Positions 7,680-15,520 of a DNA stretch of 64,000 bases are shown piece after piece. The position numbers and the translations under genes were made by a program. The stretch's first letter is position 1; the number at the start of each line of letters is the position of its first letter. The DNA is from the human T2T-CHM13v2.0 reference genome, Homo sapiens: assembly GCF_009914755.1 (NCBI RefSeq), contig NC_060936.1; one strand, given 5' to 3'. The notes below the pieces were generated by a model. The model had not been told where the DNA came from. It saw only the letters and a list, made by a program, of their open reading frames with translations, and ran no database searches.

Positions 7680-7741
7680 CAACAATTGAGTCACTTCAAA
7701 AGGAGTTCATTGAAGGGGAACACCATGGCTTGCTGTTTCAG
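7680..7741 (+). other. IRAG2: IRAG2 upstream exon (nominal 5'UTR; open in the CDS frame: TIESLQKEFIEGEHHGLLFQ)
   Basis: Acceptor tctctttgtag| and donor CAG|gtaaaa; 62 nt, ends in phase 0. Confidence 0.6.
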
Positions 7742-8907
7742 GTAAAATATCTCTGATATGTGTTCAGTTACTGCGGAGGAAGTTGTTCAATTCATGTAAG
7801 GTTTTGAAGCTAATTTATAACAGACAATGACTTTAATCATTAAATTAAATAACCAGTTTAGAAGAAAATGTTTTGGTGGACTTTGTTCTCTTCTGCACTT
7901 AAAGTATTTAGCAAAATAAGAAAGGAGATCTTACATTAGTGAGTGGCTACTGATAATATCTTCTAGAGAGGAAGCATTTCAGAATTTTCTTTGCCCCACC
8001 ACTATATCTATTAGCGAACAGCCAGTTTTTCAGTCTTGGGGACCTCCTTTCTGATAGTAAGGGCATATCATTCAATTTATAATATGCTGAAATTTTGAGT
8101 ATTCTTGAATAGGCTTTGATGGTTACTGTCTCTTTTTTCTTTCTCATATTTGAATTAAACTTTCTATTTCTTTCTGTATGGGTCATCTCAAGATATCCCT
8201 GGTAAAGTGTATTTCCTTCCCTTGTGATACTTGGTGAATCTCCTTTTTGTTCAGAAATGAAGAACATAAGGGAACAGCAAGGCAGCAAGGTTGGCACTGG
8301 AGGAAGATGATGGAGGAGGAAAGAAAGAAGGGTGATATTTGCATTTATCTGTTTCTAGGGCATCATGCAGACACATCTGTTAAAGCAGGAAAAAAAAAAC
8401 CATGTGGAAGATTAAGCTAGGCAGAGTGCCTGAAAAGCCCTCTGCAATAAGTTGAGCTGGAAAAACCTCCATATCTAAAGATGCTTTAATCATCTCAAGA
8501 ACACCAACAACATTTTCTATTATAATATAACTATGATAGATGTGAATCTACCTCTTGGATTAAGGCAATAATTTTATAGCTATCAAATTTTCACAGACAC
8601 CATTTTCACTACTCTGAGTTGCATCTCTAACAAGCTTCTTTAGCCTCTGCCTACAGATTTCAGTGACAAAGCCATTCAGTTTCTTGTTCCCGATCTTCAG
8701 ATTTCATTCCTAGATCAAGTAATGGGGCAAATACAATGGGAGGTTTAAAATTACAAATGTGTTCCCTTGGAGTAGAATACAAAAAGAACTTGTCAATTTC
8801 ACCCACTTTGGGTAGTGTCATATCTTCTATTAAGTCTAATGTGTTTGGGATCTTTGACTCTTTCATCATTCTGTCTTTGAATACACTCTACCATTTTCTC
8901 TTGACAG

Positions 8908-8988
8908 AGCTTTTTAGATGAGGAATTTCCTCACTATGATTCCCTGTCCTGCGCAGATGCAATTCAACAACCTCTTCAAGAAAAATTG
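8908..8988 (+). other. IRAG2: IRAG2 upstream exon (nominal 5'UTR; in-frame SFLDEEFPHYDSLSCADAIQQPLQEKL)
   Basis: Acceptor ttttctcttgacag| and donor TTG|gtaatt; 81 nt, phase 0-0. Confidence 0.75.
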
Positions 8989-9179
8989 GTAATTGCGAGC
9001 TTTTTGAAATTATTTAGGTAGTAATTGTGAATCAACAACTATCCTGTAATAGAAAGCTAAATCCAGTATGTATCAGTAGTCTTAGAACTGCATATATTGC
9101 TTTTATCAAGAGATTATCAAGTGAGGCAACAGATACGTGTTTTTGTAAATGTACACATACACACACACAAACCTAGTTG

Positions 9180-9439
9180 GTCCTTTGTCGCCCAGGCTGG
9201 AGTGCAGTGGTGCAATCTCAGCTCACTGCAACCTCCGCCTCCTGGGTTCAAGAGATTCTCCTGCCTCAGCCTCCGGAGTAGCTGGGATTACAGTCATACA
9301 CCACCACGCCCGGCTAATTTTTGTATTTTTAGTAGAGATGGGGTTTCCCCATGTTGGCCAGGCTGGTGACCTGAAGTGATCCACCTACCTTGGCCTCCCA
9401 AAGTGCTGGGATTACAGGCATGAACCACCGCACCCGGCC
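9180..9439 (-). mobile_element. AluS (with internal deletion)
   Basis: Alu consensus. Confidence 0.85.
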
Positions 9440-9807
9440 TGTTTTACTTTTTTTAATTGCAGTATCACGAAGAATTATGTAACTAAGTTTATTCCTCACC
9501 TATACCTCTTTCCTCAAAGCCTTTGTTTACATCAAAGTGTCAATTATTTGGAGTTGATAATGTTAGCATTCTCCTAGATTACTAAATTGTGACTTTTAAA
9601 TAAGAATCATAAGTTACTCATATGTATACCTTTTGATCAAACACTTGAAAGCTTTTTTACTTGACAGAATTTATTTTCTTCTTGATCTCTCTCACAGGGT
9701 CACTTGAGACTAGTGATATTCTTTCCACCTTTGAAATGGAGGTAGTAGATTATGAAATATATGTTACATTCCTTTAGATGGCTAATACTACTTGGTTTTC
9801 TGTTCAG

Positions 9808-9904
9808 AAGCAGTGTTGCCACAAACTATATGGTGGTCAAGAAGCAAGAATACATCAGACACCCCTGACCTTGAAACATACGTGCTGGTACACACCTCTG
9901 CTGG
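9808..9904 (+). other. IRAG2: IRAG2 upstream exon (nominal 5'UTR; in-frame KQCCHKLYGGQEARIHQTPLTLKHTCWYTPLL)
   Basis: Acceptor ttttctgttcag| and donor TGG|gtaagc; 97 nt, phase 0-1. Confidence 0.8.
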
Positions 9905-12453: not shown

Positions 12454-12601
12454 ATGCCTTATCTCTGGATAGTTTTACAGCAGTTCCAACCCTGGAATCA
12501 ACACCTTTCTCAGGTGTAGCCAACCAAATCCACACTCTGTGTGAAAGGCCCACATATGGAGAAGTAAAGGATGGTGCTTTGGATGTAAAAAGACAACACA
12601 A
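12454..12601 (+). other. IRAG2: IRAG2 upstream exon, in frame (DALSLDSFTAVPTLESTPFSGVANQIHTLCERPTYGEVKDGALDVKRQHK); contains candidate CUG start at 12492
   Basis: Long pyrimidine tract + ctactgcag| and donor CAA|gtaggt. ESTPFSG...RQHK is the N-terminus of the 555-aa LRMP form as recalled. Confidence 0.9.
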
Positions 12602-12744
12602 GTAGGTTAAGAGCAAAATTTACTTACTCTACTCCTCATGGGTGGCCCATTCCCATTGCCTAACATTTTAATTGGTCAGATTTTCATAACGTGAGATCAC
12701 ATCTTTATTGTCGAACTTCTCTAACTTCCTGAAAATTTACAATT

Positions 12745-13038
12745 TCTTTCTTTCTTTTTTTTTTTTTTTGAGATGGAATCTCGCTCTCTTGCCCACACTG
12801 GAGTGCAGTGATGTGATCTCGGCTGCCTCCCGAGGTCAAGCAATTCTCATGCCTCAGCCTTCCAAGTAGCTGGGACTACAGACGCATGCCACCATGCCCA
12901 GCTAGTTTTTGTATTTTTAGTAGAGATGGGGTTTTGCCACGTTGGCCAGGCTGGTCTCGAACTCTTGGCCTCAAGTGATCTGCCCTCCTCGGCCTCCCAA
13001 AGTGCTGGGACTACAGGTGTGAGCCACCACGCCCAGCC
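12745..13038 (-). mobile_element. AluS
   Basis: TSD gaaaatttacaattt. Confidence 0.85.
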
Positions 13039-13349
13039 GAAAATTTACAATTTTGAGATAAAGTTATTGCTGTAGTTTTCTTGGAGTGTAGTTTTCTTGC
13101 TTTTCTTGAATTTCATAATACCACTCTAAAGCTTAAAAGACAAATTAGACTACCTAAAATGTTTCCACTTTTTAGGACTATACCGTAGACTGCTAAGTTA
13201 ACATAGGTAGATTTTGATCATAATTCTCTTTCTTTCACATTCAAAGTTAACACATCTTTGGGAACCTGTCCTTGTCCCTGCACCCTACCCTCTTCCTCTT
13301 TAAGTACACAGACTAATCTTCTAATCTAAAGGAAAAACACACTCACCAA

Positions 13350-14950
13350 TGGAGTGTTTTTTCCTACTGTAGTCTCAATACCACACTTCTGATACCAGAT
13401 GTGTGGGGGTTTTTTTCCCCACACTCCAAGCAATTTTCCACACACCAATCACTTCTCCAGCCGACATGAAATGGGCGTCCAGTAATTCAGTTCAATTCCA
13501 ACGTTATCTACCTGGAAATAGCATCCGATTCCACAGGTTAAGGGCTCAGTTCCACAAGGCTGGTCCCTGCTTGAGATGCCCCTTGCAGGTTCCAGACTGT
13601 GACCTGTGCTTCTGACCAACTCTCTATAAATTGGGGGTTGCCAAGATCCCCTTCTTGGGTTCAAATAATTTGCTAGAGTAGCTCACAGAACTCGGGGAAA
13701 CACTTTCCTTACATTTATCCACTTACTACAAAGTTTATTTTATTCATTTATTTATTTATTTAAATTTATTTTTTTGGAGGCAGGATCTCACTCTGTCACC
13801 CAGGCTAGAGTACAATAGTAATTTGGGCTCACTGAAACCTTGACTTCCTGGGCTCAGGTGATTGTCTCACCTCAGCCTTCTGAGTAGCTGAGACCACAGG
13901 TGCCTGCCACCACACCCCGCTAATTTTTGTTTTTTTGTTTGTTTTTTGAGACAGAGTCTCACTCTGTTGCCCAGGCTGGAGTGCAGTGGCATGATCTCGG
14001 CTCACTGCAACCTCTGCCTCCCGGGTTCAAGCAATCCTCCTGCCTCAGTCTCCCAAGTAGCTGGGATTACAGGCCCTTGCCACCATGCCCAGCTGATTTT
14101 TGAATTTTTAGTAGAGACAAGGTTTCGCCATGTTTGCCAGGCTGGTCTTGAACTCCTGACCTCAGGTGATCCACCCACCTCAGCCTCCCAAAGTGCTGGG
14201 ATTACAGGTGTGAGCCACAGCACTTGACCTTGTATTTTTCACAGAGACAAGGTTTCTCCATGTTGCCCAGGCTGGTCTTGAACTCCTGGACTCAAGTGAT
14301 CCTCCCATCTCAGCCGCCCAACATGCTGGGATTACAGGTGTGAGCCACTGTGCCAGGTGACAAAGTCTATTTTAAAGGATACAAATGAACAGCCAGATGA
14401 AGAGATACATCGGAAAGGTTTGGAAATGTCTCGAGCACAGGAGGGTCTGTCTTTGTGGAGTTGGGGTGTGCCATCTTCCCAGCACATGGCTATGTTTTAG
14501 TTCACCAAATCAGAAGCTTTCCAAGTGCTGTCCTTTCAGGTTTTTATGGAGGCTTTACTAGGCACGATTGATTAAATCATTGGCCATTGGTGATCACCTC
14601 AGCCCCCTCCCCTCCCAGGAGCTTGGCAGGGTGGAGTTGAAAGTTCCAACGCTCAAACCACAGATTGGTTCCCCTGGCAACCAGCCCCTCATCCTGAGGC
14701 TATCCAGAAGCCCACCAAGAGATACCGCGTTAGAACAGAAGATGCTCGTAATACTCAGGAAATTTCAAGAGATTCAGGAGCTTCGCGTCAAACACTCCTA
14801 TCACTCGGGAAATTACAAGGTCTTAGACACTCCGTATCAGGAACCAGGATCAGAGACCAAATATTAGAGTAAAGATTCCCCTAGCACCTCTGTCTACAAG
14901 GATTTTAGGAGGTCTGTCTCAGGAACTGGGGGCATTGATCACAATATCAA
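13350..14950. mobile_element. MER21-family LTR, interrupted by an Alu-in-Alu insertion (about 13770-14360)
   Basis: tctacctggaaatagcatccgattccacaggttaagggctcagt... and ggatacaaatgaacagccagatgaagagataca motifs. An AluS (13945-14230) splits an older AluJ. Confidence 0.7.
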
Positions 14951-15438
14951 CGACATCCTCCTAAGTTAACTTAGACAGGTTTTGATCCTATTTCTGTTTC
15001 TTTCACACTCAAGGTTAACAAGCCTTTGGGAACCTATACCTGTCCCTGCCCTCATCCTCCTTCGGTGCTCATTTGCACCTGCCTTTTTAAGTATACAGAC
15101 TCATCTTCCTTAGGAAACATTAAAAAATGTCAGTGCATTTTGTGAGGGCCTAATCTACCTCAATAAAATTTCCCTTCTGTATTGAGGGTGAGGAAGGATG
15201 GCTTTGAATTGCAAATGCTTCATTTTCATTTTTGACTGGATTCTCTGTTGTTTGTAACCTCTCTCTGATGGAGGTGGGAACTCTCTTTCATTATGTGTTA
15301 CTTAAACCATGAACTTAATTAGAAATTTGATAAAATTAGGACTGGGCGTAGGGGAGTGAGAACCATGTTATAGTTTAGTATCTGCTAAGATTTGCAGTTT
15401 TTTCACCTGTAGTAAATAACTCTACTTCCTACTGCCAG

Positions 15439-15520
15439 GTGCCCAGGCCCCACAAGTGGCCCCAGCCCAGGAACGAATCTCTCAGGCTGCATCAGGATGA
15501 ATGATGACCCAAGTATGGAA
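15439..15520 (+). CDS. IRAG2: IRAG2 exon carrying the first in-frame AUG (15497): [27 protein letters not shown]
   Basis: actgccag|G ... GAA|gtgagt. Confidence 0.95.

What the first reader, a model, noticed from the sequence alone, without database searches (positions are those of the whole stretch)
7680..15496. IRAG2 '5'UTR' exons encode a hidden, uninterrupted 148-codon N-terminal extension in frame with the CDS
Seen: exons 7680-7741, 8908-8988, 9808-9904, 12454-12601 and 15439-15496 (62+81+97+148+58 = 446 nt) have matching phases at all four junctions. They read without a stop or a Met: TIESLQKEFIEGEHHGLLFQ-SFLDEEFPHYDSLSCADAIQQPLQEKL-KQCCHKLYGGQEARIHQTPLTLKHTCWYTPLL-DALSLDSFTAVPTLESTPFSG...RQHK-CPGP...GCIR-M. 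The frame is still open at the 5' edge (phase 1), so it points to further upstream coding exons. Neutral AT-rich UTR would rarely keep frame across five exons. Knowledge: the zebrafish orthologue (futile cycle/lrmp) is a much longer KASH protein needed for pronuclear congression. Inference: these exons are the linker of a long vertebrate LRMP isoform, either still made in human (e.g. oocyte/germline) or recently demoted to UTR under the lymphoid promoter.
Basis: partly seen in the sequence, partly recalled or inferred. Interest (0 to 1): 0.8.

Follow-up and report, generated by a model that had tools for sequence, protein, structure and literature searches.

The report
IRAG2 UTR exons encode long isoform
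Five exons annotated as the untranslated leader of the human IRAG2 (LRMP/JAW1) mRNA are conserved coding exons that join an upstream KASH5-like dynein-adaptor half to the known IRAG2 protein in one intact reading frame of about 1,450 codons, a long form that the papers read here say humans lack.

Summary
The five exons (7680-7741, 8908-8988, 9808-9904, 12454-12601, 15439-15496) have AG/GT borders. Joined, they read 148 codons without a stop or a Met, in frame with the ATG at 15497. Only 58 of 200,000 shuffles did the same.

The frame is not a chance one. The exons encode residues 808-956 of predicted IRAG2 proteins of about 1,450 aa in primates, whales, carnivores, bats, ungulates, rodents and afrotherians. 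These proteins carry EF-hand_9, KASH_CCD (both KASH5-like) and MRVI1 domains. A newt and a sawfish protein have the same three domains.

All 18 upstream coding exons are present in the human genome, 1-50 kb before the window. With them the human frame is intact: 39 exons, every internal border AG/GT, 1,455 codons. The linker is conserved about as well as the accepted disordered N-terminus of IRAG2, with almost no indels.

Human RefSeq already lists the upstream half alone, as the 766-aa NP_001308653.2 (LOC645177). I could not see whether a human transcript joins the two halves, so whether the long protein is made in humans is inferred, not shown. Eight searches found no paper describing a mammalian long form, and Horn 2013 calls it absent from human and mouse.

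Verdict: real, conserved, present in databases as predictions but not studied.

The parts
7680..7741 (+). Long-isoform coding exon 19 (residues 808-828). It is a 5'UTR exon in NM_001366544.2. It follows 18 coding exons that lie outside the window and cannot be listed as parts: exon 1 with the start ATG at window -49562..-48989, the EF-hand exon at -42562..-42355, seven coiled-coil exons at -36771..-21534, and exon 18 at -1121..-959 (full table).
   Evidence: AG/GT borders and open frame. tblastn to P0014 808-828 and P0016 135-154. Exon table. For the upstream exons.
8908..8988 (+). Long-isoform coding exon 20 (residues 829-855), holding a conserved ..GLLFQS.LDEE.. block that starts in exon 19.
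   Evidence: Alignment of 24 placental sequences.
9808..9904 (+). Long-isoform coding exon 21 (residues 856-888). An alternative acceptor at 9811 is 3 nt away and keeps the frame. The last 7 codons (9883-9903) begin the best-conserved motif, CWYTPLL.
   Evidence: Old World monkey proteins lack the one residue that the 9811 acceptor would remove.
12454..12601 (+). Long-isoform coding exon 22 (residues 888-937). It continues the motif (DAL.LDS). Its last 14 codons already fall inside the Pfam MRVI1 profile.
   Evidence: The 48-aa translation finds 19 primate proteins, 18 of them with PF05781. The MRVI1 profile 2-533 aligns to P0014 923-1454.
15439..15496 (+). The 'UTR' part of exon 23 (residues 937-956). 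It is homologous to positions 16-34 of the Pfam MRVI1 profile.
   Evidence: The translation of 15440-15520 (19 'UTR' + 8 CDS residues) matches PF05781 positions 16-42, E 2.9e-7, 30.1 bits against a cut-off of 27.
15497..15499 (+). Start ATG of the short isoform, which is Met957 of the long frame.
   Evidence: This Met is invariant in 24 of 24 placental long forms. The 149-residue linker before it has no Met in 22 of 24.
14245..14337 (+). Alternative 93-nt exon inside a masked repeat. It cannot be part of the long frame.
   Evidence: Inserting it puts 2 stops in the linker frame.
15500..54971 (+). Span of the remaining coding exons, 23 (CDS part) to 39, shared by the short and long isoforms: the MRVI1 domain, the tail anchor and the KASH6 peptide.
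   Evidence: The annotated CDS parts join in frame to the linker, giving 1,455 codons with only the terminal stop. Pfam MRVI1 matches to single exons.

Best explanation
The five exons serve two roles.

First, in transcripts that start about 50 kb upstream, they are coding exons 19-23 of a long IRAG2 isoform of 1,455 aa (1,446 aa with an alternative acceptor). They supply a largely unstructured linker, residues 808-956, that holds a conserved short motif.

The linker ties together two halves:
- An N-terminal KASH5-like module: an EF-hand pair plus a long coiled coil. In KASH5 this module binds the dynein light intermediate chain and activates dynein.
- The known IRAG2/LRMP/JAW1 body: the IP3-receptor-binding coiled coil, a tail anchor and the luminal KASH6 peptide that binds SUN1.

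The long protein would then be a membrane-anchored dynein adaptor on the outer nuclear membrane and ER, the placental counterpart of zebrafish Futile cycle/Lrmp.

Second, in the well-known short (lymphoid and taste-cell) transcripts, which start downstream of exon 18, the same exons are 5'UTR. Translation then begins at the conserved Met957, the ATG at 15497.

Shown here: the frame, its homology, its conservation, and its intactness in the human genome. Inferred: that humans make the full-length protein, in which tissue, and that it binds dynein.
For: - **Mapping.** The exons map collinearly to residues 808-955 of 1,447-1,454-aa primate IRAG2 proteins. Those proteins carry EF-hand_9 (233-291), KASH_CCD (353-541) and MRVI1 (923-1454).
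- **Breadth.** A search scored on the linker alone returned 39 proteins of 799-2,545 aa out of 347 candidates. Of the 39, 33 have all three Pfam domains, 5 have KASH_CCD plus MRVI1, and 1 has none. They come from primates, lemurs, cetaceans, carnivores, bats, horses, pig, bovids, camel, manatee and sciurid and hystricomorph rodents.
- **Alignment.** Across 24 placental sequences the 150 linker columns are almost free of gaps: 14 are invariant and 69 more are at least 80% conserved.
- **Level of conservation.** Human identity to the 19 species is 60-93% in the linker, against 58-91% in the accepted N-terminal disordered region. Gaps in the linker are 0-2 residues.
- **Depth.** A linker profile finds collinear matches in long forms outside placentals or unnamed: P0095 805-904 (E 1.8e-13), P0092, the newt P0087 810-905, and P0089. 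Newt and sawfish proteins have the three domains.
- **Human frame.** 39 exons, every internal border AG/GT, 4,368 nt, and only the terminal stop.
- **Neutral simulations** (branch lengths assumed from general knowledge). All 956 upstream codons stayed intact in 0 of 3,000 runs at 3% divergence, and in 7.9% of runs at 0.6%.
- **No speed-up on the human branch.** Amino-acid changes on the human versus the Old World monkey branch are 16 v 22 in the N half, 1 v 1 in exon 18, and 4 v 4 in the linker. The neutral expectation for the linker is 9.3.
- **Signature of dual use.** Met957 is invariant in 24 of 24, and the linker is Met-free in 22 of 24.
- **Transcription of the upstream half in humans.** RefSeq protein NP_001308653.2 (766 aa) equals exons 1-17 plus a 22-aa read-through tail.
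- **Splicing in a primate.** A spliced contig joins exon 18 to exons 19-27.
- **Pfam boundary.** The MRVI1 profile reaches about 33 residues upstream of the human ATG.
Against: - No human transcript, Ribo-seq or peptide data could be examined. The only human protein seen for the upstream half (NP_001308653.2) ends in intron 17, before the linker.
- All the long proteins are computational predictions. Gene predictors prefer long frames, and species with broken frames would not show up.
- For the window exons alone the human-lineage test is weak. Under neutrality they would stay intact in 14.5% of runs at 3% divergence, and in 68% at 0.6%.
- The linker is only moderately conserved between orders (60-75%).
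- The joined leader holds 9 upstream ATGs, all in another frame, which is how an ordinary UTR looks.
Confidence: 0.82

Rival explanations
1. Split use in humans. The exons were coding in the ancestral long isoform and still are in other mammals. In humans the locus now makes only two separate products: the 766-aa KASH5-like protein that ends in intron 17, and short IRAG2 from the internal promoter. The five exons would then be UTR only, with a frame that has not yet decayed.
For: The one human protein seen for the upstream half stops before the linker. Under neutrality the linker frame survives in 14.5% of runs at 3% divergence and in 68% at 0.6%. The start exons of the mid-length gibbon and macaque predictions carry stops in humans. 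The papers read describe only the 555-aa protein.
Against: The human branch shows no speed-up in the linker or exon 18 (4 v 4 and 1 v 1). The 4 to 6 linker changes are below the neutral mean of 9.3. Exon 18, which neither short product needs as coding sequence, is intact with good splice sites. The annotation table for this window lists no separate LOC645177 gene and starts IRAG2 at -56329, so the two units now appear to be treated as one gene (inference from the table).
Confidence: 0.15
2. Non-AUG extension. In the short transcripts the stop-free in-frame leader lets ribosomes start at near-cognate codons and make N-terminally extended IRAG2 proteoforms. That use, not a long isoform, would keep the frame open.
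For: The frame has no stop for 148 codons. Several in-frame near-cognate codons exist, including a CTG at codon 93 with A at -3 and G at +4.
Against: This does not explain the 18 intact upstream exons or the conservation of the whole 149-residue linker. Nine out-of-frame upstream ATGs would capture scanning ribosomes first. It could occur alongside the main explanation.
Confidence: 0.02
3. A chance open frame in an ordinary 5'UTR, with the long proteins being read-through artefacts of gene prediction across two neighbouring genes.
For: Any one of thousands of long UTRs may be open by luck. All the long models are predictions.
Against: Only 58 of 200,000 shuffles were open. The alignment across 24 placental sequences is gapless and frame-preserving, with a near-invariant motif. 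Collinear matches occur in newt-grade sequences. The three-domain layout is present from sawfish to mammals. A spliced transcript contig crosses the junctions.
Confidence: 0.01

Closest known systems
Zebrafish Futile cycle (Fue/Lrmp)
   Same: One protein with a KASH5-like N-terminal extension ahead of the LRMP body and KASH tail. According to Horn 2013 (passages) it binds dynein and is required for pronuclear migration. The same three-domain layout is found in the sawfish, newt and placental proteins here.
   Different: The zebrafish sequence itself was not retrieved or aligned here, and the original paper (PMC3360835) is not held. Horn 2013 states that the extension is absent from human and mouse LRMP. 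The human genome sequence says the exons are present and intact.
KASH5 (CCDC155), the meiotic dynein-activating adaptor
   Same: The human upstream half matches the Pfam families built on KASH5: EF-hand_9 (E 8.8e-15) and KASH_CCD (E 6.5e-44). Both proteins are tail-anchored KASH proteins.
   Different: KASH5 is a separate gene on chromosome 19, where the EF-hand exon is only 40% identical. It has no MRVI1 domain and nothing like the linker encoded in this window. Dynein binding by long IRAG2 was not tested.
Short IRAG2 / LRMP / JAW1 (555 aa; KASH6)
   Same: The same gene and the same exons from 15497 onward: the IP3-receptor-associated coiled coil, the tail anchor, and the KASH6 peptide crystallised with SUN1 (PMC10827754, passages).
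   Different: The short form starts at Met957 of the long frame, and treats the five exons as 5'UTR.
Human RefSeq NP_001308653.2, 'uncharacterized protein LOC645177'
   Same: It is identical to exons 1-17 of the long frame, apart from a 9-residue difference at an alternative acceptor.
   Different: It ends after a 22-residue read-through into intron 17. It therefore lacks exon 18, the window exons and the membrane anchor. One search for the name found a single paper, which mentions it once.
IRAG1 (MRVI1), the paralogue
   Same: It shares the MRVI1 family, whose profile covers the last ~33 linker residues. A 941-aa family member (P0167) that matches the human chromosome 11 IRAG1 locus as well as IRAG2 carries a similar W..PL[LI]DAL.L motif.
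   Different: No KASH5-like half was looked for or seen at IRAG1. The motif link rests on one unnamed sequence.

Membership tests
Long Fue/Lrmp-type IRAG2 (KASH5-like half + MRVI1 half in one protein) | KASH5-type EF-hand pair (Pfam EF-hand_9) | tested here: met
   The human exon translation L011:1440-1643 matches at E 2.5e-12. Human P0054 residues 219-282 match at E 8.8e-15.
Long Fue/Lrmp-type IRAG2 (KASH5-like half + MRVI1 half in one protein) | KASH5-type coiled coil (Pfam KASH_CCD) | tested here: met
   Human P0054 residues 344-532 match at E 6.5e-44.
Long Fue/Lrmp-type IRAG2 (KASH5-like half + MRVI1 half in one protein) | Both halves lie in one uninterrupted reading frame through the window exons | tested here: met
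   Human genomic model: 39 exons, 4,368 nt, 1,455 codons, only the terminal stop, every internal border AG/GT.
Long Fue/Lrmp-type IRAG2 (KASH5-like half + MRVI1 half in one protein) | A human transcript that joins both halves | not testable with these tools
   No human transcript data were available. A spliced contig from a non-human primate-like source crosses exons 18-27. The other 19 RefSeq transcripts of the gene were not visible.
Long Fue/Lrmp-type IRAG2 (KASH5-like half + MRVI1 half in one protein) | Binds dynein and acts in nuclear or pronuclear positioning | not tested
   Known for Fue and KASH5 only from papers.
Pfam MRVI1 (PF05781) | Match above the gathering score that reaches into the 'UTR' part | tested here: met
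   The translation of 15440-15520 scores 30.1 bits against a cut-off of 27, at profile positions 16-42. P0014 residues 923-1454 align to profile 2-533. The 19 'UTR' residues could not be scored on their own, being under the 20-residue minimum.
Ordinary non-coding 5'UTR | No preservation of a reading frame or of amino-acid sequence between species | tested here: not met
   Frame and sequence are preserved in 24 of 24 placental sequences, with 0-2 residue gaps in the 19 compared pairwise.
KASH5 itself | Encoded at the KASH5 locus and lacking an MRVI1 domain | tested here: not met
   The only match on chromosome 19 is 40% identical over 60 residues. The protein here is a paralogue of KASH5, not KASH5.

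The most novel reading that the evidence does not exclude
Humans, and most placental mammals, make a full-length Fue-type IRAG2 of about 1,450 aa in oocytes, zygotes or germ cells. It would be the outer-nuclear-membrane dynein-activating adaptor that pulls pronuclei and centrosomes together. The window's linker motif (CWYTPLLDAL.LDS) would be a regulatory docking site. Muroid rodents may have lost the long form: none appeared among 39 and 69 hits. That would explain why Lrmp-null mice are fertile and why the field missed it.
Probability: 0.18. Interest if true: 0.85.

Novelty: new member of a known kind. Interest (0 to 1): 0.66.

Why it matters
The papers on LINC complexes and dynein read here treat mammalian JAW1/LRMP/IRAG2 as a 539-555-aa protein of lymphoid and taste cells. 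One explicitly says that land vertebrates lost the KASH5-like 5' exons (PMC3787381).

The genome says otherwise. The human locus keeps all of those exons, in frame, and joins them to the known protein through the five 'UTR' exons in this window.

That gives a concrete and testable candidate for a second membrane-bound dynein-activating adaptor in humans besides KASH5. It would be anchored through the KASH6-SUN1 interface, whose structure has been solved.

It also bears on how variants in these exons are read. They would count as coding, not UTR. Knock-outs or antibodies aimed only at the short form may miss, or may hit, the long one.

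Tried and rejected
- A Pfam scan failed because I gave one control exon in the wrong frame. It was corrected.
- **Paper not held.** Lindeman and Pelegri 2012 (PMC3360835) is not in the library, so statements about zebrafish Fue come only from passages of Horn 2013 and Garner 2023.
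- **Whole-genome pattern search.** I searched for the back-translated linker motif to see whether IRAG1 has it. There were no matches, not even at IRAG2, because the motif is split by the intron between 9904 and 12454. The test says nothing.
- **P0167 against the human genome.** This showed only that it is a distant MRVI1-family member matching both IRAG1 and IRAG2. Its motif region did not reach the threshold.
- **Alternative donor in exon 2.** I guessed this would explain the 9-residue difference from NP_001308653.2, and the guess was wrong. The difference is an alternative acceptor of exon 3.
- **Mid-length isoforms.** I considered that the 732-781-aa gibbon and macaque isoforms might exist in humans. 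Their species-specific start exons carry 1 and 2 stops in humans, so I dropped that idea.
- **dN/dS and PhyloCSF.** Neither could be run, because no DNA of other mammals was available. I used protein identity, gap counts, a branch comparison and neutral simulations with assumed branch lengths instead.
- **Not attempted.** No structure prediction, complex prediction or atlas search.
- **Report form.** Those exons are now described in the text of the first part and in the full report.

Full report
**1. The observation**

The five exons have the stated sizes, and each is flanked by AG and GT. Joined, they make 446 nt. Read from offset 2 they give 148 codons with no stop and no Met, running into the ATG at 15497. 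The other two frames hold 7 and 6 stops.

From base composition, the chance of 148 open codons is 4.0e-4, and 58 of 200,000 shuffles were open in that frame. With thousands of long UTRs in a genome, this alone proves little. The rest of the work therefore rests on homology.

**2. What the exons match**

The 48-residue translation of exon 12454-12601 found 19 proteins among 45 candidates.
- All 19 are from primates, and 18 carry the MRVI1 family.
- Four are 1,447-1,454 aa long (snub-nosed monkey, gelada, Cercopithecinae, marmoset) and also carry EF-hand_9 and KASH_CCD.

tblastn of these proteins against the window puts the five exons at residues 808-955. Nothing from residues 1-807 lies in the window. 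Pfam places EF-hand_9 at 233-291, KASH_CCD at 353-541 and MRVI1 at 923-1454. The exons therefore encode the stretch between the KASH5-like coiled coil and the MRVI1 domain.

The last ~33 of these residues are already part of the MRVI1 profile. The translation of 15440-15520, made of 19 'UTR' residues and 8 CDS residues, passes the family's gathering score on its own (30.1 bits against 27).

**3. The rest of the gene in the human genome**

The window's own genome could be searched. The monkey protein matched a collinear series of exons from chr12:24874438 to 24923046, which is window -49562 to -954.

I fetched 64 kb upstream. For each junction I chose the splice sites that kept the frame and best fitted the monkey protein. 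The resulting human model has:
- 39 coding exons, every internal border AG/GT;
- 4,368 nt and 1,455 codons, with a single stop at the end;
- a start ATG with A at -3 and G at +4, and an in-frame stop 22 codons upstream.

The window exons are residues 808-956 of this frame. The model is mine, built by homology. It is not a transcript.

**4. What is already on record for humans**

The first coding exon is 100% identical to RefSeq NP_001308653.2, 'uncharacterized protein LOC645177 [Homo sapiens]', a 766-aa protein with EF-hand_9 and KASH_CCD.
- That protein equals exons 1-17, followed by 22 residues read from intron 17.
- It uses an in-frame acceptor of exon 3 that lies 27 nt downstream of the one in my model.

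So the upstream half is known to be transcribed in humans, but the recorded product stops before the linker.

The annotation table supplied with the finding starts IRAG2 at -56329 and lists no LOC645177. I take this to mean the two units have since been merged. I could not see the other 19 transcripts, so I cannot say whether a full-length CDS is already annotated.

From memory only, and unchecked: the classical LRMP transcript start lies a few hundred bases before the window, downstream of exon 18. That would explain why the five exons are UTR in the short mRNA.

**5. Conservation**

A search scored on the linker alone returned 39 proteins of 799-2,545 aa from 347 candidates.
- 33 have all three domains, 5 have KASH_CCD plus MRVI1, and 1 has none.
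- They come from primates, lemurs, whales, carnivores, bats, horses, pig, bovids, camel, manatee, squirrels, marmots, chinchilla and mole-rats.

I aligned the human model with 23 of the long placental forms. I picked them for length (at least 1,363 aa) and for spread across orders, including aardvark and armadillo, and did not examine the others. The 150 linker columns are almost free of gaps, with 14 invariant and 69 more at least 80% conserved. The strongest block straddles the 9904/12454 junction (..CWYTPLLDAL.LDS..).

Human identity, by region, to the 19 species:

| Region | Identity to human |
|---|---|
| Linker (window exons) | 60-93% |
| Accepted N-terminal disordered region of IRAG2 | 58-91% |
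| MRVI1 core | 90-97% |

Linker gaps are 0-2 residues.

A profile of the linker found collinear matches in long forms outside placentals or without names. These E-values are for the 232 stored proteins only:
- P0095, residues 805-904, E 1.8e-13;
- P0092, residues 779-919;
- the newt P0087, residues 810-905;
- P0089, residues 797-882.

A newt protein and a sawfish protein have the three-domain layout, so that layout is probably ancestral to jawed vertebrates.

**6. Is the human copy still under selection?**

No DNA of other mammals was available, so dN/dS could not be computed. I used two substitutes.

*Branch comparison.* With marmoset and two lemurs as outgroups, amino-acid changes fall evenly on the human and Old World monkey branches:

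| Region | Human branch | Monkey branch | Ambiguous |
|---|---|---|---|
| N half | 16 | 22 | 13 |
| Exon 18 | 1 | 1 | 0 |
| Linker | 4 | 4 | 2 |

*Neutral simulations.* Branch lengths of 3% and 0.6% were assumed from general knowledge. Fraction of runs in which the frame stayed intact:

| Region | 3% divergence | 0.6% divergence |
|---|---|---|
| All 956 upstream codons | 0 of 3,000 | 7.9% |
| Window linker alone | 14.5% | 68% |

The simulated mean for the linker is 9.3 amino-acid changes at 3%, against the 4-6 observed.

The long frame as a whole has clearly been maintained on the human lineage. For the window exons alone, the evidence specific to humans is only suggestive.

**7. Signs of dual use**

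- Met957, the short isoform's start, is invariant in 24 of 24 sequences. The 149-residue linker before it has no Met in 22 of 24. The long protein as a whole is 1.9% Met. This fits exons that must be readable as protein and must also offer no earlier in-frame AUG when they serve as leader.
- The two acceptors at 9808 and 9811 differ by 3 nt. The monkey proteins lack exactly the one residue that the second acceptor would remove.
- Against a leader tuned for translation: the joined UTR has 9 upstream ATGs, all in one other frame.
- The repeat-derived alternative exon 14245-14337 puts stops in the linker frame. Transcripts that carry it can only use the short start.

**8. Transcript-level support outside humans**

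P0002 (446 aa) is encoded on a 2,161-nt contig of unnamed source. It matches human residues 750-1080 in a single ungapped stretch at 92% identity. In the genome that stretch spans more than 30 kb, so the contig must be a spliced transcript joining exon 18 through the window exons to exon 27.

Its N-terminus matches the macaque-type start inside intron 17, which carries two stops in humans. So it does not show a full-length long form either.

**9. Likely mechanism**

By homology, the long protein would join two modules:
- a KASH5-type dynein-binding module. In KASH5 the EF-hands bind helix 1 of the light intermediate chain, and the coiled coil helps recruit dynactin (PMC10071310, passages);
- the IRAG2 body and its KASH6 tail, which binds SUN1 (PMC10827754, passages).

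That is the layout of zebrafish Fue/Lrmp, which is needed for pronuclear migration (PMC3787381, passages). The window's exons would supply a flexible spacer with one strongly conserved short motif of unknown partner. None of this function was tested here.

**10. Literature**

Eight searches found no paper describing a mammalian long IRAG2/LRMP isoform.
- The 2023-2026 papers and reviews that I read in passages describe only the short protein.
- The library lacks most subscription journals, and I opened no supplements, so a description elsewhere cannot be excluded.
- No muroid rodent appeared among the 39 and 69 hits. That hints at loss in that group, but it was not tested.

**11. Verdict**

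The exons are conserved coding exons of a long IRAG2 isoform that is orthologous in layout to Fue. In databases it exists as predictions for many mammals, and in humans it is recorded only as a truncated upstream half. Whether humans make the full-length protein remains open.

Noticed in passing
window 14245-14337: An alternative 93-nt exon inside a masked repeat is a multiple of 3 in length, but it puts two stops in the linker frame. Transcripts that include it cannot encode the long form.
   Followed up: partly
window 22614-22731: An alternative 118-nt exon, placed between 15520 and 25663, ends the short reading frame at a stop after 38 codons.
   Followed up: partly
window 7680-15496 (joined leader): The joined leader holds nine upstream ATGs. 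All nine are in the same frame (frame 0), each followed by a short ORF of 1-23 codons. There are none in the linker frame or in the third frame.
   Followed up: partly
window 9808/9811: Two acceptors lie 3 nt apart (a NAGNAG type). Old World monkey proteins lack the single residue that use of 9811 would remove.
   Followed up: partly
outside the window: -2049..-1984 and -1277..-1125: These stretches are the species-specific start exons of the predicted 781-aa gibbon and 732-744-aa macaque isoforms. In humans they carry 1 and 2 stops.
   Followed up: partly
P0167 residue 126; P0101 residue 864: A motif like that of the linker (W..PL[LI]DAL.L[ED]) occurs in an unnamed 941-aa MRVI1-family protein that also matches the human chromosome 11 IRAG1 locus, and in an unnamed 1,371-aa long form. 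The motif may be older than the IRAG1/IRAG2 split.
   Followed up: partly
(hit lists): No mouse, rat or other muroid protein appeared among the 39 linker hits or the 69 first-exon hits, although squirrels, marmots, chinchilla, mole-rats and rabbit did.
   Followed up: no
outside the window: -56329: The annotated 5' end of the gene starts a short first exon whose ATG lies 1 nt from the transcript start and is out of frame with the linker. The region is not GC-rich.
   Followed up: partly
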